Part shown: in pieces, positions 5,622 to 28,533 of the stretch | Layout: every line of letters begins with the position of its first letter | Numbering within the stretch: position 1 is the stretch's first letter | NCBI GenBank assembly: GCA_020629385.1 | Contig: JAHDDJ010000001.1 | Span: 5,797 to 69,796, forward strand | Origin: Erythrobacter sp. | GTDB taxonomy: Bacteria > Pseudomonadota > Alphaproteobacteria > Sphingomonadales > Sphingomonadaceae | DNA: 64,000 nt | Reading direction: 5' to 3' | Notes under the pieces: generated by a model | Seen by the model: only the letters and a program-made list of their open reading frames with translations | Told to the model about the DNA's origin: nothing | The model's database searches: none | Position numbers and translations under genes: made by a program

Positions 5622-7631
5622 TTAATCGGACGTAGCTGGTTTCGCTGCTATTGGTGTCGATCTCGAAACTTCGGTAGCTATTTCATTGGCATACCATTGC
5701 GTGAACACTAGCACTCCCCATAATCTATAGGCCCAATTGCGCCGCCCAGCCTTATGCTCCATCCAAATACTTCTTACCTTCGATGTATTAAGGAATCCGT
5801 GTTGATTTAGGGTTTCAGCACTAAGGAGTTCTTCAGCCCATTCTTTCAATGGGCCCCGTAACCAGTCATCCAGTGGCACCCCAAATCCCACTTTAGGACG
5901 GTATATAAGATCTTTCGGAATGTACTTTTCCAACGTTTTTTTGAGCACCCACTTCTGCTCATCTTGCCTGCATTTTACATTCTCGGGTAACGACCAAGCT
6001 AACTGCATCACATCCTGATCAAGAAATGGTGTCCGGGTTTCCAATGAGATACTCATAGCAGCGCGGTCAACCTTAACGAGTATATTGTCAGGGAGATATG
6101 TCAATAGATCGTAGGCCATCATCCACTCAGAGTCTGATAGACCGGTCCCAATCGATGCACTTAGGTCGCGAGTTATATCCTTGGCAAATGAACCATTTAC
6201 AAGATCTTGAGAGTGATCCCAATGTTGATTGAGTTGGTGGTATAGCGATTTGAGATTGGGCGCGTGGAGTAACGCAGCCCCTTTTAATAATCTATCCACG
6301 TTCAAATCACGATTACCCAATCGTGGCATTCGCTCACTCAAAATTGTTAAGGATTTGTTCCAAAACCTGTATGGCACTCGCTCGACAACGGCTGCAATGA
6401 TCGCTCTAACAGGACCAGGTATTTTTCTAAACTTGTTCCAGACCGTTTTAGTGAATTCATATCTTTCATAACCATAGAACAATTCATCCGCAGCATCGCC
6501 TGACAAGGCGACCGTGACGTGTTCACGCGTTATTCGAGCGAGCATTGTCGTTGGTAAAGCGGACGGGTCTGCGAATGGCTCAGCGTAGAGAGTTGGAAGC
6601 TCTGGTACTATATTTAACGCATCTTGACCTGATACGGTAACGCTGGTGTGTGATGACCCGATATGTTTCGCAACGTTTCGGGCGAATTCCGCTTCATTGT
6701 AAGCAGGATTGTCAAATCCAATTGTAAACGTATTAATTGGAGTATCCGATTGCTCCATCATTAAGGCTGCAACCAGGGACGAATCAGTTCCCCCTGAAAG
6801 AAACGCACCTAGTGGTACGTCAGACAGCATTTGCGACTTGACCGCTCGACCAAGAGTCTGCCTGGTTTTTTCGATCAGTTGATCTTCACTTAAAGCGCTC
6901 AAACCTTTATCGACTTTTTGAAACTCTGATACCGTCGACCAATAAGCGGATTCCTCACACGTTCTACCCGCTGGGTCAACAATACAAATCGTGCCGGGTG
7001 TCACTTTAAACACCGAACGATACATCGACGCAGAACCAGGTAGATAGTTGTGCTTTAAAAAATCCGCTAATGCGTCTCGATTAATCTCGGATGTGAAATC
7101 TGGATGAGCGCGAATTGCGCTAAGCTCAGACCCGAAAAAAAATGTCTCTTTCTGCCAACCGTAATAGAGTGGTTTTTCTCCCATCCTGTCGCGCATGAGA
7201 ACGAGATTTTTCTTCTTTTTGTCCCACACAGCGGCCGCAAACATCCCGTGCACTTGTTTCAGTGTTTCTATAATTCCCCAAGCTTCAAAACCAGCCAATA
7301 GTGTTTCTGTGTCCGAATGTCCACGCCAATTGATCTCTTTGCCTTCAATTGCAAGTTTTTCACGAAGGAGCAAATGGTTATAAATCTCTCCGTTATACGT
7401 GCAAACAAAACGCCCACAATGGGACTCCATCGGTTGGGAGCCAGCATCAGTGAGGTCCATTATCGCTAATCTAGTGTGCCCCAGCCCAATGGAAGTAGAA
7501 TCCGAGTTGTCGATGGACCCATGCCACAAAGCCTGCTTATCGGGGCCGCGATGCACAAGTGCCCCGACCATGCCTTCCAACACCGTTTTCGCTGTTGTAT
7601 GGAAAGCTAGATATCCAGTTATTCCACACAT
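5622..7631 (-). CDS. asnB: Asparagine synthase (glutamine-hydrolysing)-like amidotransferase, copy 1
   Basis: True start is MCGITG at 7631 (TAATG overlap). Motifs HRGPD, RLAI, NGEIYN, LSGGTDSS, SGDAADELFYGY, KVDRAAM and RPKVGF. Confidence 0.93.
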   Translation of the reverse strand: MCGITGYLAFHTTAKTVLEGMVGALVHRGPDKQALWHGSIDNSDSTSIGLGHTRLAIMDLTDAGSQPMESHCGRFVCTYNGEIYNHLLLREKLAIEGKEINWRGHSDTETLLAGFEAWGIIETLKQVHGMFAAAVWDKKKKNLVLMRDRMGEKPLYYGWQKETFFFGSELSAIRAHPDFTSEINRDALADFLKHNYLPGSASMYRSVFKVTPGTICIVDPAGRTCEESAYWSTVSEFQKVDKGLSALSEDQLIEKTRQTLGRAVKSQMLSDVPLGAFLSGGTDSSLVAALMMEQSDTPINTFTIGFDNPAYNEAEFARNVAKHIGSSHTSVTVSGQDALNIVPELPTLYAEPFADPSALPTTMLARITREHVTVALSGDAADELFYGYERYEFTKTVWNKFRKIPGPVRAIIAAVVERVPYRFWNKSLTILSERMPRLGNRDLNVDRLLKGAALLHAPNLKSLYHQLNQHWDHSQDLVNGSFAKDITRDLSASIGTGLSDSEWMMAYDLLTYLPDNILVKVDRAAMSISLETRTPFLDQDVMQLAWSLPENVKCRQDEQKWVLKKTLEKYIPKDLIYRPKVGFGVPLDDWLRGPLKEWAEELLSAETLNQHGFLNTSKVRSIWMEHKAGRRNWAYRLWGVLVFTQWYANEIATEVSRSTPIAAKPATSD

Positions 7632-8776
7632 TATTCGCTGCTTCGTTTCATTTTTAGTTGAGTTTCCCAAATACGCTCGAATCCTTTCACCATCACCTCT
7701 ATAGAAAAGCGCTCGGAAATTACGTTTCGACAAAGCGTCGTCTTGGTGAGCCAAGCTTGCTTATCGTTGAATATGCGATGAGCATCGAATATAGCGCTCG
7801 TCAAAGCTGCAGAATCATTGCTTGGGATAATCCATCCGCTATTATTGAGAATGATTGAGGCATCCCCAACATCAGTGGCTATGCACGGGGTGCCACATAG
7901 CATGGCTTCAGCCAATACATTTGGAAATCCCTCGTCTAAACTTGGAAGCACGTGAACATCCATAGCGCAGTAGTAACGCTGAACATTATCGCTCTCACCG
8001 ACGAGTACTATGTGATCATTCAGACCAGACTCGGAAATCAGATCGCTTAGCTCTCTGTTTTCTTTATTCATGTAAGTGCCGACAAGAACCACGGTGAAAT
8101 TCATGCCCGAGCGCGCAACTGTCTTAAGCGCATCGAAAAGCAACCTATGGTTTTTTTGAGCATGCCAACGCGCAACAACACCTATCAAAAACGTACTTGG
8201 CTCTACGCCAAGCTCGCGTCGTACGAGTGTCGCCAACTCCGGTTCGCCTTTTAATGCTTGGATATCGTAACCGTTCGCTACAACACTGATTTTTTTCTCA
8301 GGGTAACCAACTTGCACATGTTCAACCTTCGCAGTTGATGCACAGCTTATAATATGATGTGGGATAACTATAGACAGCCTTCTGCACAGCTCAAAGACCA
8401 CACGCGAGCTCAATGAGTAGCGCACGTTTTTCACGTTGGTAACTCTTATCCCCCAAATTACTGGTAATGACGTAAGTACTCGGCACAATACACCACCAAG
8501 TAAATCAGAATGATACATCCATGTCTGCACCACATCAATGTCGTCTTCGCGCACGATCGAAATAAGTCGCCTTACCCCCCTCAGTGATATGCGCCCGTTG
8601 GGCATGTCAAGGTTGTCAACTTTAAAGCCCTCCGATAGCAACTGAGTTCCATAATATTCTTCTTTTGACAAACAAACGACGTGATGCTCATGATTATTGG
8701 AATTGGTGACTAATCGATAAAGAGCAGCTTCCGCTCCTCCACGCCCTAAGGTTGCGATAATGTGCAAAATCTTCAC
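7631..8776 (-). CDS. Glycosyltransferase family 4 (WbnK-like)
   Basis: GGAE, QTWMYHSD, ARWHAQKNH and PSLDEGFPNVLAEAM (EX7E). Confidence 0.92.
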   Translation of the reverse strand: MKILHIIATLGRGGAEAALYRLVTNSNNHEHHVVCLSKEEYYGTQLLSEGFKVDNLDMPNGRISLRGVRRLISIVREDDIDVVQTWMYHSDLLGGVLCRVLTSLPVIWGIRVTNVKNVRYSLSSRVVFELCRRLSIVIPHHIISCASTAKVEHVQVGYPEKKISVVANGYDIQALKGEPELATLVRRELGVEPSTFLIGVVARWHAQKNHRLLFDALKTVARSGMNFTVVLVGTYMNKENRELSDLISESGLNDHIVLVGESDNVQRYYCAMDVHVLPSLDEGFPNVLAEAMLCGTPCIATDVGDASIILNNSGWIIPSNDSAALTSAIFDAHRIFNDKQAWLTKTTLCRNVISERFSIEVMVKGFERIWETQLKMKRSSE

Positions 8777-9873
8777 AATCCACCGGCCTGTTTATAGCGG
8801 CTGACGGACTGTTCTTGATCGAAACGACTAAGCTCTCCAAACTGTGGGTCAACAGGTTTAGGTTTAGCCAACATGCGCACAAGCGCACTCGAAAGAGCTT
8901 CTACATCACCTACAGGAATTAAGGTACCCCACCGGCCGTTATCCAACAGCTCATTGGGCCCTGTTGGGCAATCTGTTGATATGATCCTCGCGCGGCACGC
9001 TAAGGCCTGTATAAGTGCATTCGGCATTCCCTCATATTTAGACGTAAGCACGAAGCAATCACATGCGGATATATATAACTCAGGATTGGCCACGTAACCG
9101 GGTAGAAAAAGCTCAACATTTTTTTCTTTGGCTTGCGCAAGCAGTTCAGACCGAAGCCCTCCTTCACCCAATATCAAAACAGCCAAACGATGTCGGTCAC
9201 GTATATCTGCCACCGCATCAATCAATACATCAAACGCTTTTTGATCAGTCAGTCTTCCGACAGCAACAACAAAGGGATTCGTCACACCCCATTCTTGTAG
9301 AGCCGCATCGACTTGTTGTTCTGCCCCAAGGTTCGGCTCTAAAAACGTAGGGTTGTAGATCGTCGTTAAGTTTTTGCGTTGAGTAATCTGTGCAGCCACT
9401 AATTCAGAAGCGAGAGCGTCAGAAACACAGACCACACAAAATGCTCGCCTGTAGGTGATTTTTGCCAGGTTTATCCATAACCAAAATTTGAAATTCGAAA
9501 CACTCTCTCGCAACATATTTAAGGAGACTGCCTCTCTAAGAACCATCCGTGCCTTTTGGCCAGATAATAAGTTGGCTACGGATGTAACAATATTTGCGTG
9601 CATCATAGTTGAATACACGACGGCGGGTTTTACTCGTTTCAGATAACGAACTAATCTTGGCAATGCGAACAGTAACCTTTCACGATCCAAATTTTCCAAT
9701 GGAATATTTTTATTAAGCTGGCACCCGGCTGGTCCGTGTCCGCAAGCTACTACAAACCGAACATCCAAACCGTCAGCATAAAACTGATTGGCTATACCAA
9801 TCATAACTTTCTCTGCGCCGCCACTGGCGAAAGACGGTAAGAAAAACACTATAGGTTTTAATTTAGTCCTCAT
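8773..9873 (-). CDS. Glycosyltransferase family 4
   Basis: GGAEKV, VGRLTDQKAF, SKYEGMPNALIQA and DCPTGPNE. Confidence 0.92.
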   Translation of the reverse strand: MRTKLKPIVFFLPSFASGGAEKVMIGIANQFYADGLDVRFVVACGHGPAGCQLNKNIPLENLDRERLLFALPRLVRYLKRVKPAVVYSTMMHANIVTSVANLLSGQKARMVLREAVSLNMLRESVSNFKFWLWINLAKITYRRAFCVVCVSDALASELVAAQITQRKNLTTIYNPTFLEPNLGAEQQVDAALQEWGVTNPFVVAVGRLTDQKAFDVLIDAVADIRDRHRLAVLILGEGGLRSELLAQAKEKNVELFLPGYVANPELYISACDCFVLTSKYEGMPNALIQALACRARIISTDCPTGPNELLDNGRWGTLIPVGDVEALSSALVRMLAKPKPVDPQFGELSRFDQEQSVSRYKQAGGL

Positions 9874-11791
9874 TTAAAAGCCACGCCTGCAACATTAAAA
9901 CGGTCCATAATTTACTTGCGTGGTCTCTTCGCCCCGAAACGTGTTCGTTCCAAACTTTGCTTACCACCGCATTGTCGAGAAGGGATGTTTTATTTAAAGC
10001 GTCCTTATTTATCAAAGATTCAGCCCAATCACGTAGTTCGCCACGTAACCACGCATGAAGCGGAATTTCAAATCCCGATTTCGGTCGATCAATGAGGCGC
10101 CTGGGTACCTTTCTATATACCAGTTCGCGTAAACACCATTTTGTGATTCCGTCCCGGATAAGTTGATCGTCACTAAGTGTCGCCGCAAAACTTATTACAG
10201 CTGGCGATAGAAACGGCACCCTGGTTTCCAATGAAACAGACATGGCTGCCCGGTCTACCTTTGTCAAAATATCTCCTGGAAGATATGTCTGACTATCCCG
10301 CTGCATCATCCAACGTAGAGGGCTCTCTTGATTTGGTAAACATTGATTTTGTGTTGCCAGTCGATCCTGACTCCCGAGTAGGACATCAGTGGAATCTGGC
10401 CATTCTTCACATAATTTTTCGTACAGCTCATTCAATGTACTACTTGGAAGTGTGTTGGAAATTTTTTGTAATTTTGTACCAAGCATTGGCACCTTGCTAT
10501 CGTCTACTGCTGAATATAGAGAACGAAAAACGGTGCTTTGCGATGATGGTATAGCGACAGTGTCAAGTAAAAAACTTACTACACTACGGATCGGCGCTGG
10601 GACCTTTTGAATTTTTGTCCAAAAGCGAGCAGCGTACTTGTAGCGGTTATACCCCCCGAATAACTCGTCCCCACCGTCACCCGACAAACATACAGTGACA
10701 TGTTCACGAGCCATTTTTGATACCAAGATAGTAGGAATCTGTGAAGAATCCGCAAAAGGCTCATCGTAAACTGAAGGAAGCTTCGGAATGACATCAAGCG
10801 CATCTGCTGCAGACACATATAGCTCATGATGATTCGTGCCGAGGTGTTCTGCTATCGCTTTGGCATATTTAGCTTCGTCCAGCTCAGCGAAATCAAAACC
10901 GATAGAAAAGGTGTTAATAGGAGCTGCTGATCTTTCCTGCATCAAACTGGCTATAGCGGTCGAATCGATTCCTCCGGATAAAAAGGCACCAATTGGCACG
11001 TCAGATAGACACTGAGACTCAACCGAATCACCAAGAATAGAGGACAACGCATTCACCGCTTCGGTATCACTCCTCTCCTGATTATTGCCATACTCAGGGA
11101 ATTTCCAGTACTGTTCAGTGACTTCTGGAGAGCGCGCCCTGTTTTTCGGATCTACGGTAACGAAACTCCCCGGAGGCAACTTGTAAATCCCTTTATAAAC
11201 TGAAGCGGGTGCGGGAATGTACCGGCTACGCATGTATAACTGTAATGCATTCCGATCTAACTGGTTTGAAAACTCAGGGTGCTGTCGAAGGGCCTTTAGC
11301 TCGGAACCAAATAGAAATGTATTCCCCTGCCAACCGTAATAAAGGGGCTTTTCACCCACTCGATCGCGGCACAATGTCATCGTCTTTTCAGATCGATCCC
11401 AAACGGCCACTGCAAACATACCGTTCAGTTTGTGTAAAGCTTGCTTAATACCTAGATGTTCAAAACATGCCAAGAGCGTTTCGGTATCCGATCCTCCACG
11501 CCATTTGTTGAATCCAGTTGACGCCTCCAGCTCTAAACGCAGTGCCAGGTGATTGTATATTTCTCCGTTGTACACAGCTACGTATCGACCCGAGCTAGAT
11601 TCCATAGGCTGAGAGCCGCTAGCTGATAAATCCAGAATCGATAATCGCCTGTGAACTAAGCAGACTCCAGAATCCGGATCTGTCCAGATACCTTGGTCGT
11701 CCGGTCCGCGGTGCTCCAAAGAAGCCGCCATGGCTTCGGCTACGCATTCTTTAACTAACGTGGTGCCCACATAACCAGCAATTCCGCACAT
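9863..11791 (-). CDS. asnB: AsnB-like amidotransferase, copy 2
   Basis: MCGIAG start at 11791. Motifs HRGPD, RRLSI, NGEIYN, LSGGIDST, SGDGGDELFGGY and KVDRAAM. Confidence 0.93.
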   Translation of the reverse strand: MCGIAGYVGTTLVKECVAEAMAASLEHRGPDDQGIWTDPDSGVCLVHRRLSILDLSASGSQPMESSSGRYVAVYNGEIYNHLALRLELEASTGFNKWRGGSDTETLLACFEHLGIKQALHKLNGMFAVAVWDRSEKTMTLCRDRVGEKPLYYGWQGNTFLFGSELKALRQHPEFSNQLDRNALQLYMRSRYIPAPASVYKGIYKLPPGSFVTVDPKNRARSPEVTEQYWKFPEYGNNQERSDTEAVNALSSILGDSVESQCLSDVPIGAFLSGGIDSTAIASLMQERSAAPINTFSIGFDFAELDEAKYAKAIAEHLGTNHHELYVSAADALDVIPKLPSVYDEPFADSSQIPTILVSKMAREHVTVCLSGDGGDELFGGYNRYKYAARFWTKIQKVPAPIRSVVSFLLDTVAIPSSQSTVFRSLYSAVDDSKVPMLGTKLQKISNTLPSSTLNELYEKLCEEWPDSTDVLLGSQDRLATQNQCLPNQESPLRWMMQRDSQTYLPGDILTKVDRAAMSVSLETRVPFLSPAVISFAATLSDDQLIRDGITKWCLRELVYRKVPRRLIDRPKSGFEIPLHAWLRGELRDWAESLINKDALNKTSLLDNAVVSKVWNEHVSGRRDHASKLWTVLMLQAWLLNED

Positions 11792-11792
11792 T

Positions 11793-13775
11793 TCAAAGGC
11801 TTCCTCTTGAAGCGCTACCATCTACACAAACAATTGATGCATTTTCGAGAAGCCAAGACTGGAACATCAGGATGTTCCACATCGGACCACCCAAGTCCCA
11901 TCGACCACTTAGATGCAACTCCCACGACCTTCGGACAGCGGACGCGTTAAAGAGGCCTTGCTGTTCCAGTGTTTTCGGACAGAGCAGTACTTCCGCCCAC
12001 TCTCGAAGTGGGCCGCGCAACCAAATGCCCACAGGTAAAGAAAATCCTTTTTTCGGTCGCTCAATTAATTCGTTTGGGATGTGGCGTTTAAGAACTTCCT
12101 TTAAGAGAATTTTCCCATTACCCGCGCGCAATTTGCTTTCAACGGGTATTCGCCATGCAAGTTCCGCAAGCTGGTGATCAAGCAGTGGAGCTCTCGCCTC
12201 GAGACCCACGGCCATGCTGGCTCGATCCACTTTGCACATAATGGTATCGTGCAAGTAAGTAGACGCGTCACACAGCATCATTTGTTCGAAAGCGTCGTGA
12301 AGCCCTATTTCTTTTGCTTTGTCAAAGCGCTCGATGATGTAGGGTGAATTTGAATTGCTCGGAAAGACTTCCTTAGGATTTAGCCATTGGGACATTATCG
12401 CTTGATAGAGATGTGGGTGCGATTCAAGTGACGCCAACTCGAGTAAACGTCGCCAATGAGCTACTTTGGCTGAGTACCGCCTTCCACCGTTTGCAGCGTT
12501 ATCGCTTCTTCTTAATCCAAGAACTGCCGCACCCAAACGTGACGCAGGACTCCTTATAACTTGAGGCACTCTGTTTAGTCTTTCCCAAATATTCACTGAC
12601 TCCCAATACCTTCGATAGCCACCAAACATCTCGTCACCACCGTCGCCCGAAAGACTGACCACCACATGTTGTCTCGTCAATTTCGATACCAAATACGTTG
12701 GTATCTGAGAAGAGTCAGCAAATGGCTCATCCCACACTGATGACAAATTGGGTATGACGTCAATGGCATCAGACGCGCTCACGTAAAGCTCGTTGTGTTG
12801 TGTTCCAAGATGGGTGGCGACACTTCTGGCATAAGGGGCCTCGTCATAAGCCTCTTCTTCAAACCCGATACTGAACGTATTCACCGACTTTGACCCAGTA
12901 GCTTTCATCATGGCTACCACTAAACTGGAGTCCACGCCCCCGGAGAGAAAGGCGCCGAGCGGAACGTCACTATTCATCCGAGATTGCACACTTTCCAAAA
13001 GCTGTGTTTCGAGCACGTCAACTATTTCAGCATGATCAAGTTCTACTGGATTCCTGGAGCCATTCTCAGCGGCTCGCTCTATCGACCAATAGCTGCCGTA
13101 CTCAGCATTCTCCAGGTCGGATTCATCAAACGTAACGATGCTCCCGGGAAGAAGCTTGTGTATACCTTCGTAGATGGTTTTTGGTGCTGGAATATTGTTG
13201 TAGCGTAAGAAATCAGACACCGCACTGAAGTTCAAATTAAATCGGGTGTCCGTTCCTTCTACTATCGCTTTCAGTTCAGATGCGAAAACTAAAGCCCGAC
13301 CGATAACACCGAAATACAACGGCTTTTCACCCAGTCGGTCTCGCACTAAATGAAGTTTCCGCAGATCTTGATCGTATAGTGCAAAAGCGAACATCCCGTT
13401 GATTTTAGACAACGTCTTATCAATACCCCACTGGGTAAAACATTCGATCAATGTTTCTGTATCGGAGGTGCCGCGCCATTCAATGGGGCATGACTGCTCT
13501 AATTCTTCTCTTAGAGCAGAATGGTTATATATTTCCCCGTTGTAGCTGATCACATATCTGCTGGATTTCGAAAGCATTGGTTGACTTCCATTGCTGGACA
13601 AATCCAGTATGGAAAGCCTTCGATGGCCAAGAGTGACACGGCAATCTCTCGACTGCCAAATCCCTTCTCCATCTGGGCCGCGATGTCGAATCGCAGCCAG
13701 CATTGCATTAACCCGGGTAATTGAGTCTTGTCCTGATACGCCATCGGCTGGCAAAAAACCTGCTATTCCGCACAA
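11793..13775 (-). CDS. asnB: AsnB-like amidotransferase, copy 3
   Basis: TTG start giving MCGIAG. Motifs HRGPD, NGEIYN, LSGGVDSS, SGDGGDEMFGGY and KVDRASM. Confidence 0.93.
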   Translation of the reverse strand: MCGIAGFLPADGVSGQDSITRVNAMLAAIRHRGPDGEGIWQSRDCRVTLGHRRLSILDLSSNGSQPMLSKSSRYVISYNGEIYNHSALREELEQSCPIEWRGTSDTETLIECFTQWGIDKTLSKINGMFAFALYDQDLRKLHLVRDRLGEKPLYFGVIGRALVFASELKAIVEGTDTRFNLNFSAVSDFLRYNNIPAPKTIYEGIHKLLPGSIVTFDESDLENAEYGSYWSIERAAENGSRNPVELDHAEIVDVLETQLLESVQSRMNSDVPLGAFLSGGVDSSLVVAMMKATGSKSVNTFSIGFEEEAYDEAPYARSVATHLGTQHNELYVSASDAIDVIPNLSSVWDEPFADSSQIPTYLVSKLTRQHVVVSLSGDGGDEMFGGYRRYWESVNIWERLNRVPQVIRSPASRLGAAVLGLRRSDNAANGGRRYSAKVAHWRRLLELASLESHPHLYQAIMSQWLNPKEVFPSNSNSPYIIERFDKAKEIGLHDAFEQMMLCDASTYLHDTIMCKVDRASMAVGLEARAPLLDHQLAELAWRIPVESKLRAGNGKILLKEVLKRHIPNELIERPKKGFSLPVGIWLRGPLREWAEVLLCPKTLEQQGLFNASAVRRSWELHLSGRWDLGGPMWNILMFQSWLLENASIVCVDGSASRGSL

Positions 13776-13824
13776 AACATATTCCCCAGAGTTTGGTTAT
13801 AAACGTTACCGCAATTAGAGTCGA

Positions 13825-14925
13825 TTACTCTCGGCCCAGTACTTCAACCCAGTTGCTCAAATTCTGTTGCTCGCTATGAGAGATCAGTATCTGAGTGGCA
13901 CTGCGTCCAAGCCGTTCTCGTAACTTTCCATCGCGAACCGCTTCGGAGATTGCCCCTGCCAACGCTGTAGTGTCCCCAGCCGGCACCAACAGCCCATTAA
14001 TTCCATGCTCAATCAATTCCGCTGGACCTGCGGGACAGTCAAATGCAATAGAACATTTCCCTGCTGCCATCGCTTCCATTAAAACATTCGGATACCCCTC
14101 TTTCCGGGAAGGCAATACAAATATGTCTGCTCGCTGGTACCAATCACTTAGGTTGCCAACTCGACCAGGAAGAACGAGTTGATCGTGAATCCCCAAGTTG
14201 CTGGCCTGCTGCATAACCTCGTCCCCTTGTTTCAGACCAGCAATTGCCAATTTGACATTGGGATCAAATTCGCATTTTGCGAAGCTCTCTAATAGGAGGT
14301 CAAATCCTTTAAACCATGAGTTACGTCCCACAGCCAGTATCACGAACTCTTCAGCTGAAAGATAATCAGTCGTCGGTTTATTTGGATCGCTATCGGCCAA
14401 AGGAAACACTACCGAATTGGGTATTGTTACGACAGATTTCACACCGGCATTTCGCTCTAGCCAACTTGACGCCCTGGCGGTTTGGGCAACAACCTCACTC
14501 GCAAAACGGTAGGTCAACCTGCGCAGAGGGTGCCAAATTCGGCCATCTTGCTTGGTTGGGAAATTCCTTTCGGCCAATACAACCCGTGTTTTTAGTCCAA
14601 GAGTAGCAATGGAGAGAATGACGTTCTGCGTCGTCATAAATGACAATGCCACATCTGGCTGTAGTTGTTTTACGGCTTTCCGCGTAACCCGAACTCGATT
14701 TATGTTTGATGCTAAACCGTGCAACGCGGAAGTAGACTGAGTATCCAGCTCGAGATGATGTCGATCGACCCGCTCATCCAGAGGATACTGATCTTCCACC
14801 TGAGATGATTGTGTCAACACATTAACCTTCCATCCAATGTCACAGAGGCTTTTTGCTAACCGAACGACCGTTCTTTCAGCGCCACCACCATCCAGCGAAT
14901 GAACAAAAATTGAGATTTTCCGCAT
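13825..14925 (-). CDS. Glycosyltransferase family 4 (AmsD-like)
   Basis: GGAER, VGRNSWFKGF, PSRKEGYPNVLMEAM and DCPAGPAE. Confidence 0.92.
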   Translation of the reverse strand: MRKISIFVHSLDGGGAERTVVRLAKSLCDIGWKVNVLTQSSQVEDQYPLDERVDRHHLELDTQSTSALHGLASNINRVRVTRKAVKQLQPDVALSFMTTQNVILSIATLGLKTRVVLAERNFPTKQDGRIWHPLRRLTYRFASEVVAQTARASSWLERNAGVKSVVTIPNSVVFPLADSDPNKPTTDYLSAEEFVILAVGRNSWFKGFDLLLESFAKCEFDPNVKLAIAGLKQGDEVMQQASNLGIHDQLVLPGRVGNLSDWYQRADIFVLPSRKEGYPNVLMEAMAAGKCSIAFDCPAGPAELIEHGINGLLVPAGDTTALAGAISEAVRDGKLRERLGRSATQILISHSEQQNLSNWVEVLGRE

Positions 14926-15051
14926 TTACTTAACTTGACCAATAGTTCACATATTACAGTGCGGTTTAGATCGCGCATTCGAAGTATGCTCTCACCCACG
15001 AATGTTGGAATTTGAACTGATCAGCTCAAGTTAGCCGATCCTCGGAGCCCT

Positions 15052-16380
15052 GTGATTTTACCAAATAATAAGCTGTCCATCTTGGTCGAAAGAATGAAGA
15101 GCGTTCCATTGCTGCGAGAATCCGGCCTAATTTTTTTCGTTAGAGCCTCGGCCTACGCTATCGCTTTTTTGGTAAACATTTTCTATGCGCGAATTCTTGG
15201 CGTAGACGAGTTCACTACTTACATCTACGCACTTAGTTGGTTGCCCCTGTTGCAAATCTTATCGTTAGCGGGAAGCGATAGTGCGATATTGAAATTTGTA
15301 CCCCAATATTTAGTTACTAAAGAGTGGAAATATGTAAGGGGCCTACTAGATCACAGTTTTTATGTCGTTTTGGCTAACTCACTCCTCGTCGGGGGGGCGT
15401 TTTATTTTCTGATGACAAAGTTCCCCGTATCCGATCAAATAGAAGTAAAGAAAGCCCTTAATTACTTAGTTTTTGTATTGCCGCTTTTAGTTTACTTTTC
15501 ACTACAGTATTCGTTTTTAAGAGTTTTAAAACAGACCATTGTCGGAACAGCACTTCAGGAAATAGCTAGACCATTGTTGCAACTCGTCATAGTGGTGGTG
15601 TCTTACTACTTGGTCGGGCCGGTAACCGCCTCTTCTACGCTGCTCGTATACGGCATGACAATGGTTCTAGCAATTTTATGCGCTCATGCCCTGACGAAGA
15701 AGAACATACCTGTACAGGTATGTGAAAGCCGCAGAAATACAGACTGGCGCCTATGGATATCAGTTTCAGTTCCGATGTTTGCAGTCGCAGGCTTTCAGTT
15801 AATTACGGCAACGATGGATGTACTAATGTTAGGTTACCTAGTCGATACAAAAACAGCGGGGATCTACGGGGTCGCTACCAAAATCGCGGCGCTGGGTTCA
15901 TTCGGATTTTCCGCGATTGCACTATTTGTGGTGCCGACATTTTCAGAGCTACACGCCAAAGGCGATAAAGCCGCGTTACAGAAAAGAATAACTGATTCAT
16001 CAAGGCTTATATTTTTGTCAGCAGTTGTTTTCACTGTTCTAATTTCTGTATCCAGCACCTTTTTATTAGGGTTATTTGGTGAGGAGTATGTTCCGGCGAG
16101 GACAAACTTACTCATTTTGCTCTTTGGCCATCTTTTTATCGGATTTGCAGGTGCAGCTGCGTACGTTTTAGCGATGACAGGCCATCATAAAAAGGTTTTT
16201 CTTTTCACATTTCTAGCCGCTAGTCAAAATGTGGTTTTAAATTACATTCTTATTGGGATTTACGGAGACACTGGCGCGGCGGTGGCGACGGTTTACACAC
16301 AAATTTTTTCCACAAGCGCAATGGTTGTTTACCTTATTGTCCGAACTGGCTTAAACACGACTATACTTAAGCGAATTTAA
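15052..16380 (+). CDS. wzx: Wzx-type oligosaccharide flippase
   Basis: About 12 hydrophobic segments, with ARILG..EF, D-VLMLG, AGIYGVA and GAAVAT motifs of the PST/MOP family. Confidence 0.88.
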   Translation: MILPNNKLSILVERMKSVPLLRESGLIFFVRASAYAIAFLVNIFYARILGVDEFTTYIYALSWLPLLQILSLAGSDSAILKFVPQYLVTKEWKYVRGLLDHSFYVVLANSLLVGGAFYFLMTKFPVSDQIEVKKALNYLVFVLPLLVYFSLQYSFLRVLKQTIVGTALQEIARPLLQLVIVVVSYYLVGPVTASSTLLVYGMTMVLAILCAHALTKKNIPVQVCESRRNTDWRLWISVSVPMFAVAGFQLITATMDVLMLGYLVDTKTAGIYGVATKIAALGSFGFSAIALFVVPTFSELHAKGDKAALQKRITDSSRLIFLSAVVFTVLISVSSTFLLGLFGEEYVPARTNLLILLFGHLFIGFAGAAAYVLAMTGHHKKVFLFTFLAASQNVVLNYILIGIYGDTGAAVATVYTQIFSTSAMVVYLIVRTGLNTTILKRI

Positions 16381-16478
16381 CAATGTTCACCGTTGCCACT
16401 TTGGCAGACCGAGCTCTGAAACGGCTTTAGTGAGAGAATGTGAACTGTAAATTGACATAGCGCCCAAGGAAAGCGTTC

Positions 16479-17534: not shown

Positions 17535-17544
17535 CCTCTCAATA

Positions 17545-17580
17545 AATCCAACAGATGGATTCTTCGGCCCGCACGGGCCG
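17545..17580 (+). other. Two tandem perfect 6-bp hairpins after PL1 paralog A
   Basis: aatcca-acaga-tggatt (17545-17561) and cggccc-gcac-gggccg (17565-17580). No U-tract follows. Confidence 0.35.
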
Positions 17581-17773
17581 GTCCAAAACAATTGTCGACT
17601 AAGTGGCTTTTATTAAAAAATCTGTGCGATACATCCAAATCAAATAAAGCGTCCCTCACAGAAAGAGCAGTAAGTCAAAAGATATCCTAAAACAGATCGC
17701 TACATGCCTTGTACCGATCGGTTAATGCTCGCTGTCGGCTGTAATAAGCAACGATCGGCTCCCTACTATAAAG

Positions 17774-19297
17774 GTGCAAGCCGTGAGAATAATAATAATA
17801 GGACTGGCAGTCTTTTTATGCTCGTGTAGCTCTGGAGGTCCAGATGAAATTTTTGAAGCGACACCCGATGCTGTCAAGCCACCGCTTGCACTTGCAACCA
17901 CAGATGGTGCAGCAGTTCTCAGCAACTCTTCAGACGCTAATGGGAGTTTGACCGCTTCAACGACTGATGCTCAGCCGTCTCTCGGAGCTGCAAATCCTGA
18001 TAGCACAGCAGAGGGTTCTCCAACCGACCAAACCGACAATGAGACCACATCGTCAGGCACTTTAAACCCTACACTTGCTGCAGAAACCGCAGAAAGCGCT
18101 ATTTCAAACAATCAGCCATTTACAGTGCAAGCACCCGAAACGGAGCTAGGCGAAGGGCAAGCGCCGCAATTGCCAACACCAGATCTACTATCCAATGCGG
18201 CCAACCCATCACAAGCGAAAATCGAGTTGCCCACTCCTCAGGTAACTGAGTCGTCCAGCACTTCAAACGAAAATGAAACAAACCGAGAAGACGATAATTC
18301 TCTTGTCGACAGCGGCAATAACGAACCACCTATTGACTCGTCACCTGACTTATCCACTGATCACTTTCCAGATGGGGACAACTATGAAGATTTATTAACC
18401 TCTTCTGGAAGAATAGGGTTTGGTGCTAACGCTACCGGTGGCTTCGCCAGCGAGTTGTGTTTAGTTACAAACTTAAGCGACAGTGGAACCGGTTCTCTGC
18501 GCGAGTGCATTGAGAAAGCAGGAGCTAATTGGATCCGTTTTTCCGTAAGCGGCACCATTAATTCAAGTGGATATATTTACCTGAATAGCAATAAAACGAT
18601 AGACGGACGGGGGGCGGACATTACCCTTTCCGGTGAGCAAGGATTAATCTGTTTTGGCAAAGAAAATATTATTATTCACAACATAAAGATAAAGAATATA
18701 GGTTCTGGAATTAAGCTTCGCGAACAGTGCAAGAACGTGTGGATTGATCATGTTGAACTGAGTTACGTTGAAGATGAAGCCTTGTCTGCAGACCAAGGTT
18801 CTACCGACATCACTTTTTCTAGGGTACACGTTCATAGCACCGTAAAAGCCGCGCTCATAGGTTCAGCTCCCGATCAGACAGAAACAAGGAACACCCGCGT
18901 AACTATCCACAACAGCATCCTAGCCGCACGGATGAGAAATCCTAATTCAAGGTACGCATCGGTTCATGTTTTTAACAACGTCATTGAAAACTTTCAATGG
19001 GAAGGAATGGTAGCGTCGCAGGAAGCACGCATAATTTCGGAGAACAACGTACTAATCGCCGGTCAGGACACCGTAGAAGAGCGATATGCGCAGATCGCTC
19101 AGATTCATAATCAAGGGGATTACAATACGGGGTACCTCTGGTCTGTAGGTGATGATTTTAGAAATGGAGCAGACCAGTCAGGCGAGGGAATAAATCCTGA
19201 TACATCTATGAAGTTTGATATCCCCTACCATTACCCGTTGGATCTAGCAGACGATGCCTTGATCGAGAGGCTCAGATCAGAGGTAGGTTGGCAGTAG
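17774..19297 (+). CDS. Lipoprotein with long low-complexity linker and PL1 pectate-lyase-fold domain, paralog B
   Basis: Lipobox LCSC-S, then about 190 aa rich in S/T/A/P/D/E, then GFGANATGG, DSGTGSLR, KTIDGRG, VWIDH and RNPNSR...HVFNN. Confidence 0.87.
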   Translation: MQAVRIIIIGLAVFLCSCSSGGPDEIFEATPDAVKPPLALATTDGAAVLSNSSDANGSLTASTTDAQPSLGAANPDSTAEGSPTDQTDNETTSSGTLNPTLAAETAESAISNNQPFTVQAPETELGEGQAPQLPTPDLLSNAANPSQAKIELPTPQVTESSSTSNENETNREDDNSLVDSGNNEPPIDSSPDLSTDHFPDGDNYEDLLTSSGRIGFGANATGGFASELCLVTNLSDSGTGSLRECIEKAGANWIRFSVSGTINSSGYIYLNSNKTIDGRGADITLSGEQGLICFGKENIIIHNIKIKNIGSGIKLREQCKNVWIDHVELSYVEDEALSADQGSTDITFSRVHVHSTVKAALIGSAPDQTETRNTRVTIHNSILAARMRNPNSRYASVHVFNNVIENFQWEGMVASQEARIISENNVLIAGQDTVEERYAQIAQIHNQGDYNTGYLWSVGDDFRNGADQSGEGINPDTSMKFDIPYHYPLDLADDALIERLRSEVGWQ

Positions 19298-19322
19298 TCG
19301 CCCACGGGGCCGGATATCTCTC

Positions 19323-20603
19323 TCACGCCCACCGGGTCCGCCTGCGCCTGCTTCGTTTCTTGTGGGGAACTGGCTCGCGCTCGCGGATCATAGTTCTGTT
19401 GAGGTCGGTGGTACCAAACAACGCCATCGCAATAGCGAACTGCCAGAAAAACGTCTCTAACAAATTGTGTGTGTAAAAAGAAAACCACAGATACGCGAGG
19501 GCTAATACACCAAAATCCGAGAATATCCTTCTATTAGCCCCTTTATTAAACAGAAGCCATAGCATCCAACCCCACATAAACACACCTGTAATACCAAAGA
19601 TGTACGCCCAATCTATGATCATATTATGGGATTGAGCATCACTAAATTGATTCCCTAAGATCGGGCTATCAAAAAAACCAGCCAATCCATCTCTCGCAAG
19701 CTGCGCCCTACCAGTGGCGCTGTCGTCGTCTATCTGAGCGACTCCTTCTTCGAAAATTGAGATTCGACTCATCATATTCGCAACGTACCCTGGATTATCT
19801 GGAAACTTTTCATTTAACCGGTCTTCGATAAGGGGTAATGAGTAGGAGTAAGACAGCACTGCCGCTATAAATAACAGCAGGGAAGCACGAGGAAGCTTCC
19901 CTGACATAACGTACAGCACTCCCAGAACTACCCAGAAAACCATCCCCGCCCGGGAAAACGTAAGTATTACCGCCAAACCGCACAGTGCGAATAAGAATAT
20001 TGATGAAAGACCCCGAATATGGCTTATCACCAAAACAAGCGTAACCAGGGTTGCTTCGCCAGCTAGATTCGGATTAATAAAAGTACCTTCAGCGCGCCCA
20101 CTGGCTAGCTTGTCTTCAGACAATGACGCAAATAAATCAGTGAAGAAGAAATCTAAAATAATGATTGTGGGTATCAGGAACGATGCAACCTTCAGATATC
20201 TGAGCACAGTTTCTGTATTCGTATTAAGTAAAAGAAAACCTAGAATAAAAAAGAGAATAAATCGCTCTATTCTATTGCGGTCGTACCATATCTCTTCCTG
20301 ATCGACAAGCTTGTCTATATTCAAAAATAGAAAATGATTTACAAGAAACATCAGTACAACAGCGGTACCCCACGCAAAGCCCGGATTGCTGACGAACAAA
20401 TACCAGTTACGGTAGTAAAAAAGTATACTTAGTGCACCTACCACAAGGAGCACCAAATCGAAATACGGAGCATTGACAGTACTAAAACGATAATCCAAAA
20501 ATAGCGGAAGATTGGTATAGGTGATCAACACGATGTATGCCATAGAAATATTCAAAAAAATGACTTCCAAGACTTTGAATATTTTTGAATTTTTTCTTTT
20601 CAT
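19323..20603 (-). CDS. O-antigen ligase / Wzy polymerase family membrane protein
   Basis: Multi-TM protein with RAEGTFINPN, TFSRAG, SATGR and SHN motifs (Wzy_C-like). Arg-rich C-terminal tail. Confidence 0.82.
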   Translation of the reverse strand: MKRKNSKIFKVLEVIFLNISMAYIVLITYTNLPLFLDYRFSTVNAPYFDLVLLVVGALSILFYYRNWYLFVSNPGFAWGTAVVLMFLVNHFLFLNIDKLVDQEEIWYDRNRIERFILFFILGFLLLNTNTETVLRYLKVASFLIPTIIILDFFFTDLFASLSEDKLASGRAEGTFINPNLAGEATLVTLVLVISHIRGLSSIFLFALCGLAVILTFSRAGMVFWVVLGVLYVMSGKLPRASLLLFIAAVLSYSYSLPLIEDRLNEKFPDNPGYVANMMSRISIFEEGVAQIDDDSATGRAQLARDGLAGFFDSPILGNQFSDAQSHNMIIDWAYIFGITGVFMWGWMLWLLFNKGANRRIFSDFGVLALAYLWFSFYTHNLLETFFWQFAIAMALFGTTDLNRTMIREREPVPHKKRSRRRRTRWA

Positions 20604-20866
20604 GCCAATTGACTGGTTCAGCCCTAGTCCGAGTTAAATGCTACAAAGCTCACAACTCTTACGCGTTGACAACTTTGACTGTGTGATCACTTCACGTTTT
20701 TCGTGTTTAGCATACCCCTCGAACTGAAACTGGAGTGGTATGCGAGTTTCAACGGTGAGGCTTGTTCGTTCGCGGCAAACCTTGGACGGGCTATTCTTCT
20801 TCATTTCGGGTTTGTCTATACTAGTCGCAAAAGCCAGACTGAGCTACATCGGTTAGCGAACCCATT

Positions 20867-22075
20867 ATGCATCTACACAGAAATTCTACGATAATTGCCG
20901 CATATATCATCACACGTATAGTGGCGGTCGGCACACTGTGGCTAGTAACCGGAGGTAGGGAGGTTGCTAGCGACGTAGATTTTTACAGGATGATGATCGA
21001 GTCTCCCCTGGGGATAATAAATGGCAACCTCACACAAGAGGTTTCAAGCTACGCCCCATTACAGTTTTTGTATACCTACCCAGCGCATAGATTTTTCTCG
21101 TCGTTTTTGGATGACTTCTGGAGTTATCGATTGGTCATGATCGCTGTAGAAGTCGCTGCAGCCTACTTACTTTTCACCATTTTAGATATGGCAGAAGTAC
21201 CTGATAACGTCGCTGTGTTTTCTAAATGGCTAACTGTATTCTCACCCAGTCTGGTGTTAACGACATCAGTCTTTGTCCAGGACGAAATAATAAGCTACTT
21301 CTTTGTGGCTCTAGCGTTGCATTCTTATTTACGTTCAAAACCTACGCTAGCGATATTTTCACTCACGTGCGGGATATTGCTAGGTAAGATCTTTTTGATA
21401 GTACCGTTGTTTTTCGTATTTCTATTCTTAAAGGTAAGCGTAAAAACGTTGGCGGCTCTAGTTCCCTTGGCAGCAATCTATGGTTTAGTTGTAATTGCCG
21501 CCGTCGACAAAGGGGGTTATCTCCCGTTAGTTGGATTCAGCCCTGGTGCAGACTACAGCTCCTTTCTGTGGGTTTTGCTCATCCAATCTCAACCAAATAA
21601 TTTGGAGGCTATCAAGCTTTTCAGTCTGCTTTCAACTGCCCTGCTCCAGCTATTATTTTTTGCTTTGTTTTTGTACGTTCGATATTTTCGTGATATTCCC
21701 ATTCGTGCAGAGACGCTGGTACTTGTGCCTTTGTCGGGACTCTTTTTAACTCTTTATCAGCATAACGCCGAATACCTAATTTTGCTGATACCGGCAGCTT
21801 ATCTGTACTGCAGCTCAAAAATGGAAGTACTGTTACTGACTACCCTGCTTGCCTTCGCCTGGATACCCCGAGTGCTGCACGGATTGGTGGGGCTGGGAAG
21901 CACCGAGGCGTCGACGTTTGAGACTAGGCAGCAGCTGCTGGGCCCTTTATTCGGGCCCATTCAGGATAGTCTGCCGTCCATACATCACGCGTCAATTGTG
22001 TGCTACTCGGCATTCTACTTCCTTGCGTTAGTTGTTCTCTGGGCTAAGACACGAAACCGACTTGGAGGACGTTAG
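20867..22075 (+). CDS. Polytopic membrane protein, probable GT-C (GT87-like) glycosyltransferase
   Basis: SDVDFY after TM1, followed by YAPL, QDEI and GILLGKIFLIVP, resembling GT-C family motifs. About 11 TM segments. Confidence 0.6.
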   Translation: MHLHRNSTIIAAYIITRIVAVGTLWLVTGGREVASDVDFYRMMIESPLGIINGNLTQEVSSYAPLQFLYTYPAHRFFSSFLDDFWSYRLVMIAVEVAAAYLLFTILDMAEVPDNVAVFSKWLTVFSPSLVLTTSVFVQDEIISYFFVALALHSYLRSKPTLAIFSLTCGILLGKIFLIVPLFFVFLFLKVSVKTLAALVPLAAIYGLVVIAAVDKGGYLPLVGFSPGADYSSFLWVLLIQSQPNNLEAIKLFSLLSTALLQLLFFALFLYVRYFRDIPIRAETLVLVPLSGLFLTLYQHNAEYLILLIPAAYLYCSSKMEVLLLTTLLAFAWIPRVLHGLVGLGSTEASTFETRQQLLGPLFGPIQDSLPSIHHASIVCYSAFYFLALVVLWAKTRNRLGGR

Positions 22076-23281
22076 CCTATCTTTCTTTTTAATCAGTTCA
22101 TAACAGTCCAAGCCATTCCAGCCAGCTCCAGAACTGACGCTTTCGTAGAGCCATTCCCCGGCAGGTATCAACGTGCCGATATACATCGATTCCCGCTTAT
22201 CTGTCCAACGATCTATGCCAATTCCAGATTGACTAGCCTGCTGCCAAAATAGGTTACCTGCACCCCAAGAGGCACCGGCCACATCGTCACCTTGATTATG
22301 CACATCCGCCCGTATTCCGTACTGTGGAAATATGGTGTCGTCCGAGGCAACTATTAAATTATTTTCTGCCAATAAATGACCATTCTGAGAAACGATCATT
22401 CCCTCATATATAAAGTCGGAGACAACGTTGTTATAAGCATGAACATGTGCATAACGTATGTTCGGGTTACGTTGTTCCGCGCCAAACCAGTTGTTATGCA
22501 TCAATACGTAAGATTGCTCGGTTGCATAATCCCGATGGGAGCTACCAATTAGTACCGATTTGGGCGTCTCAGTGAAACGCGACCAAGAAACAACCACGTT
22601 TGTCGACCCTTGATCAATAGCTATAGATTCATCCTCGATGTTCGAAAAACTGACGTGATCCACCCAAACGTCCGAGCACTGCTCTCGCAAGCGTATCCCA
22701 GATCCGATATCGTCAAACTTAATATTATGAATAATAATGTTGGACTCGGAAAAACAAGCGATACCATTTTCTCCAGATAACGTTATGTCCACACCTCGGC
22801 CGTCTACTGCTTTGTTCGATTTTATGTATAGGTAGTTATCGGTATAGATTGTGCCGCTCACTGCGAACCGCACCCATGAAGAGGTGTAGCTTTCGAGACA
22901 GCTTCGCAGCGAACCCTCTCCCGAATCAAGCAAATTTGTTACCCAACATTCTTCCGAATCAAGGCCGTGGCTAAAGGAGAATCCGAGATCTTCCGCTGCT
23001 TGGGAACCATTTACTAGGTAGTCTACTTCCCAGTTCACTCGGTTTGGTACTTGATCCAGACTAGGTGTGCCGTCACTCGGTCCGATGGCACCGATTAAGA
23101 GCTCATAATCGAGCTTGTCAATAGAATTGTGCGAGCTCAAAACGGCCCCCCGATCGCTTACAACAGCTTCAATGCCCAGCTGCGACCAACCGCCTTGCTG
23201 CTCCGCATCATTAGCGTTCAAACCAGTAGTAAAAGAAAAGCAGATGAAGAGCTTGGCCAGAATTTTCAAAGATGCTTTCAT
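22028..23281 (-). CDS. Secreted PL1 pectate-lyase-fold protein, paralog C
   Basis: N-terminal signal ending LNA. Motifs VTNLLDSGEGSLR, KAVDGRG, VWVDH, KSVLIG and RNPNIR...HAYNN. Confidence 0.85.
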   Translation of the reverse strand: MKASLKILAKLFICFSFTTGLNANDAEQQGGWSQLGIEAVVSDRGAVLSSHNSIDKLDYELLIGAIGPSDGTPSLDQVPNRVNWEVDYLVNGSQAAEDLGFSFSHGLDSEECWVTNLLDSGEGSLRSCLESYTSSWVRFAVSGTIYTDNYLYIKSNKAVDGRGVDITLSGENGIACFSESNIIIHNIKFDDIGSGIRLREQCSDVWVDHVSFSNIEDESIAIDQGSTNVVVSWSRFTETPKSVLIGSSHRDYATEQSYVLMHNNWFGAEQRNPNIRYAHVHAYNNVVSDFIYEGMIVSQNGHLLAENNLIVASDDTIFPQYGIRADVHNQGDDVAGASWGAGNLFWQQASQSGIGIDRWTDKRESMYIGTLIPAGEWLYESVSSGAGWNGLDCYELIKKKDRLTSSKSVSCLSPENN

Positions 23282-25164: not shown

Positions 25165-25260
25165 TCAAGCCACGTGATACTCTATCGATCAATCGCCAGA
25201 ACAGGGTTAAGCACGGCAGCGAAGCGATTTATCAGAACGACGCAAGCAAACTCCTTCCCA

Positions 25261-26304: not shown

Positions 26305-26471
26305 TGAGCTTCTCTGTGTTTCCACAATTCGCAAGGCTCATTAATTTGACGCCTTTGTCGCAATAAACTAGCTGAATTTCGCAAATGTTGCAGCCGTATT
26401 CGAAATAAATATTACAAACTAGGCGAATATCTAGTGTGAGACTAATTTTCCGTTCGCACTATTTTGGGGCG

Positions 26472-27266: not shown

Positions 27267-27302
27267 CGCTACCCTTTCCGCTATTCGACGATTAACGCAG
27301 TT

Positions 27303-28430: not shown

Positions 28431-28533
28431 GCGAATAGATCATCTGGTGGTGCAAATCAGGGAAGTTGAATTATGTTCACCACTGAGTCCTTCTTCTTAT
28501 TGTACATCGCTCGAGTGATTAAGGGATTCATCG

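What the first reader, a model, noticed from the sequence alone, without database searches (positions are those of the whole stretch)
5622..23281. Candidate coupled system: AsnB amidation of uronic acids plus Ca2+-independent lyases for the amidated polymer
Seen: the GT4/AsnB operon (5622-14925) is divergent from wzx and PL1-A/B, with wzy and PL1-C adjacent and ugd just upstream. Established: AsnB homologs in O-antigen loci (e.g. Pseudomonas WbpS) convert uronic acid carboxylates to amides, and beta-elimination needs the C6 charge neutralised. Inference: heavy amidation would pre-neutralise the polymer, which would explain the apparent loss of Ca2+ ligands in the three lyases. That would amount to a 'uronamide lyase' write-and-cut module, which I do not know to be described. 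This is my best candidate for a new system here, but it rests on co-location and motif logic only.
Basis: inference. Interest (0 to 1): 0.7.

Follow-up and report, generated by a model that had tools for sequence, protein, structure and literature searches.

The report
Surface-glycan locus with three own lyases
A bacterial surface-sugar gene cluster carries three amidotransferase genes and three pectate-lyase-family genes whose products likely cut the cell's own polymer, but related clusters keep either gene type without the other, so a special amide-cutting partnership is possible yet unlikely.

Summary
The genes and layout are real. Three intact asnB and three GT4 genes face wzx and PL1-A/B, with wzy-like and PL1-C genes beside them. 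A second metagenome contig (L006) repeats the layout with two asnB. The lyases form a small PL1 clade lacking two of the three usual Ca2+ aspartates. The amide link is not supported.
- Their closest solved relative, VexL, is metal-independent on a non-amidated polymer.
- Two sister-clade lyases (62% identical, near-identical motifs) sit in loci with two asnB and with none.
- 0 of 80 asnB loci sampled across GTDB carry a PL1.
- In the contig's probable order, PL1 occurs in 10 of 20 asnB-positive and 4 of 9 asnB-negative glycan loci (p=1).
- The two most syntenic two-asnB clusters carry oligogalacturonate-lyase-fold propellers instead of PL1.
- A lyase cutting a C6-amidated uronate from its own locus is already published (RbmB).
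Best reading: cognate exported depolymerases in a swappable slot of a Wzx/Wzy locus. This is a new variant of a known kind. The contig is probably mis-binned.

The parts
2830..4164 (+). UDP-glucose 6-dehydrogenase (ugd); the only uronate-forming dehydrogenase found on the contig
   Evidence: Pfam/NCBIfam; a TviB query finds nothing better on C540; 78% identical ortholog in the syntenic cluster of G923
4322..5092 (+). ElyC/DUF218 membrane protein
   Evidence: orthologs in the G923 and G943 clusters
5622..7631 (-). AsnB amidotransferase 3 (Met-Cys start at 7631)
7631..8776 (-). GT4 glycosyltransferase (the label 'WbnK-like' is recalled; best NCBIfam match TIGR03088, below cut-off)
8773..9873 (-). 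GT4, best match PglJ (below cut-off)
9863..11791 (-). AsnB amidotransferase 2
11793..13775 (-). AsnB amidotransferase 1
13825..14925 (-). GT4, best match PglH (below cut-off)
15052..16380 (+). Wzx flippase
   Evidence: PF01943; ortholog overlaps the PL1 start in L006
16479..17534 (+). PL1-A, parallel beta-helix lyase with a signal-peptide-like N terminus (by eye); K178, R208, R213 kept; S131, D154-E155, A158, N211
17774..19297 (+). PL1-B, lipobox-like N terminus (by eye), long low-complexity linker, then the lyase domain
   Evidence: similar build in L007
19323..20603 (-). Wzy polymerase or O-antigen-ligase-like membrane protein
   Evidence: PF04932
20867..22075 (+). Unannotated multi-pass membrane protein conserved in related clusters
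   Evidence: no family; orthologs in G923, G943, G942, G904
22028..23281 (-). PL1-C, signal-peptide-like N terminus (by eye)
23776..29580 (.). Continuation of the same cluster: unannotated 462-aa protein, polysaccharide deacetylase, GNAT, GT4, wecA
   Evidence: same genes in the G923 and G943 clusters; the 462-aa ortholog lies beside the PL1 in L007
35822..39156 (-). wzc and wza export genes
   Evidence: orthologs in the G923 cluster

Best explanation
This is a Wzx/Wzy-type surface-glycan cluster whose three PL1 genes likely encode exported depolymerases that cut the cell's own, probably partly amidated, uronate-containing polymer, and whose altered calcium site likely reflects clade ancestry rather than amidation. 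Shown: gene content and order, the PL1 fold, the residue changes, and that related clusters fill the same slot with other lyase-fold genes or leave it empty. Inferred steps: (1) Ugd, or a UDP-GlcNAc dehydrogenase elsewhere in the true genome, supplies the uronate. (2) The three AsnB turn some C6 carboxylates into amides. (3) The GT4s, Wzx, the Wzy-like protein and Wzc/Wza build and export the chain. (4) PL1-A and PL1-C (soluble, exported) and PL1-B (lipoprotein on a long tether) cut 4-linked uronosyl bonds by beta-elimination with Arg208 as base, trimming, clearing or releasing polymer. (5) C6 is most likely neutralised by the invariant basic residues (R/K134, R136, K178, R213) and/or a metal held by D154-E155, so a free carboxylate is an adequate substrate.
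For: Best sequence and fold match is VexL (E 8.6e-30; Z 38.4, rmsd 2.0 over 294 residues). VexL is a periplasmic lyase encoded in its own capsule locus, EDTA-insensitive on non-amidated GalNAcA (PMC6003464). A VexL ortholog locus has no annotated asnB among 24 features. The window clade (8 sequences, support 0.999) is sister to 17 PL1 domains that mostly share a D-D pair and lack the same two Asp sites. Six of these were seen inside Wzx/Wzy loci, four with asnB and two without. The PL1s of G886 (no asnB in 38.9 kb; TviB and a sulfotransferase present) and G873 (two asnB) are 62% identical with near-identical motifs. PL1 vs asnB in 29 glycan loci of the probable order: 10 of 20 vs 4 of 9, Fisher p=1. 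0 of 80 GTDB-wide asnB loci carry a PL1. The syntenic two-asnB clusters of G923 and G943 have three and two beta-propeller genes and no PL1. A model of one propeller matches oligogalacturonate lyase best (Z 25.2, rmsd 4.1 over 315 residues; next 20.7).
Against: No activity, substrate or glycan structure is shown. The clade lacks both the canonical Ca2+ triad and VexL's essential R172 and R235 (E155 and N211 here), so step 5 is the weakest inference. Both testable loci of the exact clade (window, L006) are multi-asnB. Among 12 loci anchored on the 7631-type GT4, 6 of 7 with asnB have a PL1 and 0 of 5 without do. G886 and G889 each have another asnB on a different contig, and the G889 locus encodes an ATP-grasp enzyme that could form amides. 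The counter-examples are 24-35% identical sister lyases, not the exact clade.
Confidence: 0.6

Rival explanations
1. One reading: the lyases are selective for primary uronamides (CONH2) made by the three AsnB. The amide needs no Ca2+ or Arg clamp and would be read by E155 and N211.
For: E155 and N211 are invariant in 8 of 8 clade members, where VexL has R172 and R235 and 90 of 147 outgroup domains have R at 211. Both testable loci are multi-asnB. 10 of 20 asnB-anchored loci in the probable order carry a PL1-fold gene, against 0 of 80 GTDB-wide. The GT4-anchored subset gives 6 of 7 vs 0 of 5. RbmB shows elimination at a C6 amide is feasible.
Against: The same D-D, K178, N211, R213 set occurs in the asnB-free G886 locus. 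G883 has asnB and keeps R211. No enrichment across 29 loci (p=1; short-type PL1 3 of 20 vs 2 of 9, p=0.63). 4 of 9 multi-asnB loci lack any PL1. Five of the six positives in the favourable subset are the other PL1 type, and its negatives are two truncated contigs, two loci of one layout and one non-glycan region. RbmB is still about two-fold stimulated by calcium, so amide does not imply metal independence. Five conserved basic residues fit an anionic substrate.
Confidence: 0.2
2. The proteins bind or remodel the polymer (matrix or scaffold proteins, or epimerase-like enzymes) rather than depolymerise it.
For: Three paralogs, one a tethered lipoprotein. Canonical metal site eroded. Beta-helix epimerases AlgG and AlgE appear lower in the fold lists.
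Against: The catalytic Arg (R208 = VexL R232), K178 (= K195) and R213 are invariant in 8 of 8. PL1 enzymes score Z 30-38, against about 21 for epimerases.
Confidence: 0.12
3. Catabolic pectin- or algal-uronan lyases that happen to lie in the cluster.
For: PL1 is mainly a pectin-degrading family, and some PL1-fold genes in the order lie in regions with no glycan-synthesis hit.
Against: Start codon overlaps the wzx stop in L006. The genes are interleaved with wzx and wzy-like genes. Sister-clade members recur inside biosynthesis loci. No uptake or uronate-catabolism genes were annotated among the window ORFs scanned.
Confidence: 0.08

Closest known systems
VexL (PL1 subfamily 13 per PMC11229556; PDB 6FI2; PMC6003464)
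   Same: Best sequence and fold match. Exported PL1 in a capsule biosynthesis locus, lacking the canonical Ca2+ aspartates. K195 and R232 are conserved as K178 and R208.
   Different: Only 28-32% identical and outside the window's clade in the tree. R172, R235, Q237 and Y254 become E, N, R and E. VexL loci use an ABC exporter, and the one checked has no asnB; the window uses Wzx/Wzy with three asnB and has three paralogs.
RbmB of the vps cluster (PDB 9OZL/9OZD; PMC11637428, PMC12993940)
   Same: Beta-helix lyase encoded in its own Wzy/Wzx-like glycan cluster; eliminates at a C6-amide-linked uronate; probably periplasmic.
   Different: Distant fold match (Z 21.6, 15% identity). Lys base. The amide is to glycine, whose carboxylate is still bound by arginines. 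Stimulated by calcium. No AsnB is described in the passages read.
WbpS/PglH/PglJ uronamide pathway (H. pullorum, PMC6025236; P. aeruginosa WbpO/P/S as cited there)
   Same: AsnB-type amidotransferase with PglH- and PglJ-like GT4s; product mixes HexNAcA and HexNAcAN.
   Different: There wbpO is present and the glycan is a short N-glycan with no lyase. No TviB/WbpO was found on this contig.
PfPL1 (PL1 subfamily 2; PDB 9BUJ; PMC11229556)
   Same: PL1 proposed to catalyse without the catalytic Ca2+ on ordinary pectin.
   Different: Catabolic. Metal independence is inferred from structure. Z 30.9, 23% identity to PL1-A.

Membership tests
Polysaccharide lyase family 1 | Parallel beta-helix with PF00544 match | tested here: met
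   All three above the Pfam cut-off; model pLDDT 83.7, top folds all PL1
Polysaccharide lyase family 1 | Catalytic Arg in RxPxxR | tested here: met
   RNPNxR in 8 of 8 clade members
Polysaccharide lyase family 1 | Beta-elimination activity on a uronan | not testable with these tools
   Needs an enzyme assay
Classical Ca2+-dependent pectate lyase | Three acidic Ca2+ ligands at the canonical columns | tested here: not met
   S131, D154, A/S158; all three are acidic in 124 of 163 comparison domains. A relocated site at D154/E155/D160 is not excluded.
VexL subfamily | High identity (65-89%) and same clade as VexL | tested here: not met
   28-32% identity; separate clade, with a Caballeronia ortholog standing for VexL in the tree
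VexL subfamily | Essential R172 and R235 | tested here: not met
   E155 and N211
VexL subfamily | Adjacent to Vi (tvi/vex ABC) genes | tested here: not met
   Wzx/Wzy-type locus
AsnB-type glutamine amidotransferase | N-terminal Cys GATase plus Asn_synthase domain with intact motifs | tested here: met
WbpS-type uronate amidotransferase | Converts a uronate C6 carboxylate into an amide | not testable with these tools
   Inferred from neighbourhood and PMC6025236; acceptor and amine unknown
Proposed AsnB-coupled uronamide-lyase module | Lyase subtype co-occurs specifically with (multi-)asnB loci | tested here: inconclusive
   Exact clade: 2 of 2 testable loci have asnB, too few to test. Sister clade and other PL1s: no association (p=1 and 0.63); reverse test 0 of 80.

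The most novel reading that the evidence does not exclude
The window clade is the first PL1 group selective for primary uronamide (CONH2) residues. E155 and N211 replace both the calcium site and VexL's arginine clamp to read the amide, so AsnB amidation marks where the cell's own capsule is cut. The three paralogs would read different amidation patterns set by the three AsnB.
Probability: 0.2. Interest if true: 0.65.

Novelty: new variant of a known kind. Interest (0 to 1): 0.4.

Why it matters
Cognate lyases in glycan loci are known (VexL, RbmB, AlgL), so the concept is not new. What is new is an uncharacterised PL1 clade with a third active-site solution: neither the Ca2+ triad nor VexL's arginine pair. 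Also new is evidence that one gammaproteobacterial order fills a slot in its Wzx/Wzy loci with interchangeable lyase folds, including an unannotated propeller family that resembles oligogalacturonate lyase. These are testable candidates for depolymerases of HexNAcA- or uronamide-type bacterial glycans, useful as tools for glycan analysis. If amide selectivity held, it would show how a lyase activates C5-H next to a primary amide.

Tried and rejected
- Relatives and class of G000 (61 and 401 genomes, no clade member outside G000) tested the wrong lineage. The contig is a composition outlier (GC 47% vs 57%; tetranucleotide r=0.31 vs median 0.97), so G000 cannot show what the true genome holds.
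- The first genome-contig scan with the three lyases found nothing.
- The exact clade was not found in the 85 genomes of the order of G817: best 163 bits, against 484-525 for the window's own genes. P0002, P0017, P0019 and P0170 lie on contigs of 2.5-13.5 kb; only the locus of a P0019 cluster relative (L007, 3.8 kb) was obtained, and it is too short to test.
- 'It is VexL' was rejected on identity, tree position and residues.
- The Pfam PL1 model found only 5 of 85 genomes, so custom profiles were used. These were seeded from the same loci and are partly circular.
- A promoter scan gave chance-level counts (13 vs 15.4).
- A PDB sequence search with a propeller found nothing.
- Earlier-findings look-ups were empty.
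- Literature searches for an amide-selective PL1 or PL1s in such loci (listings only, open-access library) showed RbmB but no primary-uronamide lyase. Subscription papers are not covered.
- No complex prediction was run, since no protein-protein binding is claimed.
Full report
**Observation.** ORF calling and family scans confirm the layout. On the minus strand, 14925 to 5622 reads GT4 (best match PglH), asnB, asnB, GT4 (best match PglJ), GT4, asnB. The GT4 matches are below the curated cut-offs, so sugar specificity is not assigned. All three AsnB keep the N-terminal Cys and synthetase motifs. Divergently, wzx is followed by PL1-A and PL1-B, then a Wzy/ligase-like gene, an unannotated membrane gene and PL1-C. 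The cluster continues through a deacetylase, GNAT, GT4, wecA, wzc and wza, and a second cluster with a fourth asnB follows. Export signals (signal peptides for A and C, a lipobox and long linker for B) were judged by eye; no predictor was run.

**Origin of the contig.** C540 has 47% GC against 57% for G000, and its tetranucleotide correlation is 0.31 against a median of 0.97. It is probably mis-binned, so searches of G000's kin say nothing about it. Its Wzc matched best in four genomes among 400 scored from the class of G461, a genome titled Gammaproteobacteria. I used the 85-genome order of the best hit, G817, as the probable lineage. That placement rests on one gene. No TviB/WbpO was found on the contig, so the only uronate source seen is Ugd; HexNAcA would need a gene elsewhere.

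**What the lyases are.** All three pass the Pfam PL1 cut-off. The best PDB match by sequence and by fold of an AlphaFold model (pLDDT 83.7; Z 38.4, rmsd 2.0 over 294 residues) is VexL, with Jun a 1 close behind (Z 36.8). A search of 1.84 billion representatives, two homolog searches and a metagenome scan gave a tight clade of only 8 sequences (support 0.999). It is sister to 17 other domains (joint support 0.84), inside a 33-member group (0.996); VexL, represented by a Caballeronia ortholog, lies outside (FastTree, 191 sequences, midpoint root). In PL1-A numbering the clade has S131, R/K134, R136, D154, E155, A/S158, K178, R208, N211, R213 and E230. Outgroup domains have D131 (138 of 147), D154 (143), G155 (121), D158 (124) and R211 (90). 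So two of three canonical Ca2+ aspartates are gone, one remains, and new acids sit beside it. The PelC equivalence of these columns is recalled.

**Loss of the site does not require amidation.** PMC6003464 (abstract, passages, section 7, and part 1 of 2 of sections 4 and 9 read; supplement not read) shows VexL is EDTA-insensitive, lacks the DXD motifs and cuts O-acetylated poly-GalNAcA with free carboxylates. A VexL ortholog locus has no annotated asnB among 24 features in 30.6 kb. PMC11229556 (abstract start in the listing and part 2 of 3 read) proposes metal-free catalysis for a pectin-active subfamily 2 enzyme. Against a simple 'VexL-like' reading, VexL's essential R172 and R235 align with E155 and N211 here. 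The window enzymes therefore use neither known solution. An amide substrate, a relocated metal site, or the other conserved basic residues could each fill the gap.

**Co-occurrence, forward.** Only one other locus of the exact clade was long enough to test. L006 has the same layout with two asnB, and wzx overlaps the PL1 start. L007 (3.8 kb) has a PL1-B-like gene beside an ortholog of the 23776 ORF. This shows linkage in one locus type, not specificity.

**Co-occurrence, reverse.** An asnB scan of GTDB stopped after 4 of 64 parts and kept the best 80 of 600 hits. None of the 80 has a PL1 within 10 kb by any profile used; 49 loci are 15 kb or longer and 6 have two asnB.

**Co-occurrence in the probable order.** The exact clade was not found in 85 genomes, but other PL1-fold genes are common inside Wzx/Wzy loci. 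I examined 51 contig regions; 29 passed a filter of at least 11 kb and two GT hits, and 22 were dropped, among them G883:C43 (asnB, PL1) and G908:C33 (no asnB, PL1).
- Any PL1: 10 of 20 with asnB vs 4 of 9 without, p=1. Sister-type PL1: 3 of 20 vs 2 of 9, p=0.63. Many regions were chosen because of a PL1 hit, which inflates both rates, and kin are not independent.
- Anchored on asnB alone: 10 of 20 loci of 14 kb or more have a PL1 (3 shorter loci dropped). Of 9 multi-asnB loci, 5 do and 4 do not.
- Anchored on the PglH-like GT, seeds excluded: 0 of 5 asnB loci have a PL1, and 2 of 4 without asnB do (two of these four contigs are under 7 kb).
Five of the six positives are the longer PL1 type (my label 'subfamily-2-like' is recalled from motifs). 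The negatives are two truncated contigs, two loci of one layout and one non-glycan region.

**Natural controls.** The sister-type PL1s of G886 and G873 are 62% identical and share D154-D155, K178 and R213; position 211 is N in G886 and E in G873. G873's locus has two asnB. G886's has none in 38.9 kb and instead encodes TviB, WbpB/D-like enzymes and a sulfotransferase. G913 has two sister-type PL1s and no Asn_synthase match in its possibly incomplete genome; those two keep R211. Caveats: G886 and G889 have another asnB on other contigs, and the G889 and G913:C7 loci encode ATP-grasp enzymes that could form amides. Conversely, the clusters most syntenic with the window, G923:C51 and G943:C31, have two asnB each and no PL1, but three and two exported beta-propeller genes. 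A model of one propeller (pLDDT 77.0) matches oligogalacturonate lyase best among 48,161 chains (Z 25.2, rmsd 4.1; next 20.7), and the Atlas's nearest named clusters agree weakly (0.88; lead only). A shared fold shows no function, but it suggests a swappable depolymerase slot.

**Precedent.** PMC12993940 (abstract, passages) and PMC11637428 (passages) describe RbmB. It is a beta-helix lyase encoded in the vps cluster that eliminates at a guluronate with a C6 amide-linked glycine, and it is about two-fold stimulated by calcium. A lyase for an amidated uronate in its own locus is therefore described, though not for a primary amide or in PL1 in what I found (searches; listings only). PMC6025236 (passages) links WbpS with PglH/PglJ to a glycan mixing HexNAcA and HexNAcAN, which suggests amidation here may be partial. 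PMC13232197 (passages) shows a PglJ can transfer GalNAcA. I recall, without having seen it in any call, that fungal pectin lyase A works poorly on amidated oligogalacturonides. No supplements were read; VexL's supplement holds the structural overlays and locus maps that bear on residue roles.

**Verdict.** Real and conserved locus. The lyases are probably cognate depolymerases of a new small PL1 clade (0.6). Selectivity for AsnB-made uronamides is not excluded by the active-site residues, but the larger co-occurrence tests do not support it (0.2). New variant of a known kind; interest 0.4.

Noticed in passing
G000:C540 (whole contig holding the window): Composition outlier in its assembly (GC 47% vs 57%, tetranucleotide r=0.31 vs median 0.97); probably mis-binned, with gammaproteobacterial best matches for Wzc.
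   Followed up: partly
L141:1652-6346 (G923:C51); L149:882-4270 (G943:C31); L165:2-1588; L168:1221-5758: Unannotated exported beta-propeller family in tandem inside glycan loci syntenic with the window, where the window has PL1s. Best fold match is oligogalacturonate lyase (Z 25.2); several invariant histidines.
   Followed up: partly
order of G817: L120, L122-L125, L127, L129, L130, L138, L139, L142, L152, L161, L163, L175: Diverse PL1-fold genes embedded in Wzx/Wzy biosynthesis loci, most missed by Pfam PF00544. 10 of 20 asnB-anchored loci in this order have one, vs 0 of 80 GTDB-wide.
   Followed up: yes
window 40667-64000: Second glycan cluster: fourth asnB (46300-48189), WbpB/WbpD-like genes, two PglC-type transferases, UDP-GlcNAc 2-epimerase and a heparinase II/III-like gene (56627-58492). 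No WbpA/TviB found on the contig.
   Followed up: no
window 5129-5563 (-): 144-aa ORF with a lipobox-like N terminus directly downstream of asnB3; no family match.
   Followed up: no
window 23776-25164 (+) and 20867-22075 (+): Two proteins with no Pfam or NCBIfam match that are conserved in the syntenic clusters (54-58% and 34-35% identity).
   Followed up: partly
L123/L164, L160/L161, L157/L158: Related loci without asnB carry one to several sulfotransferases, and two carry an ATP-grasp, aminotransferase and hydroxyacid-dehydrogenase trio, suggesting sulfated or amino-acylated glycans.
   Followed up: no
G000:C540:74972-77340 (beyond the window): Exported protein(s) with what look by eye like two GH16-type catalytic motifs next to the second glycan cluster, interrupted by masked bases; no family scan run.
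   Followed up: no
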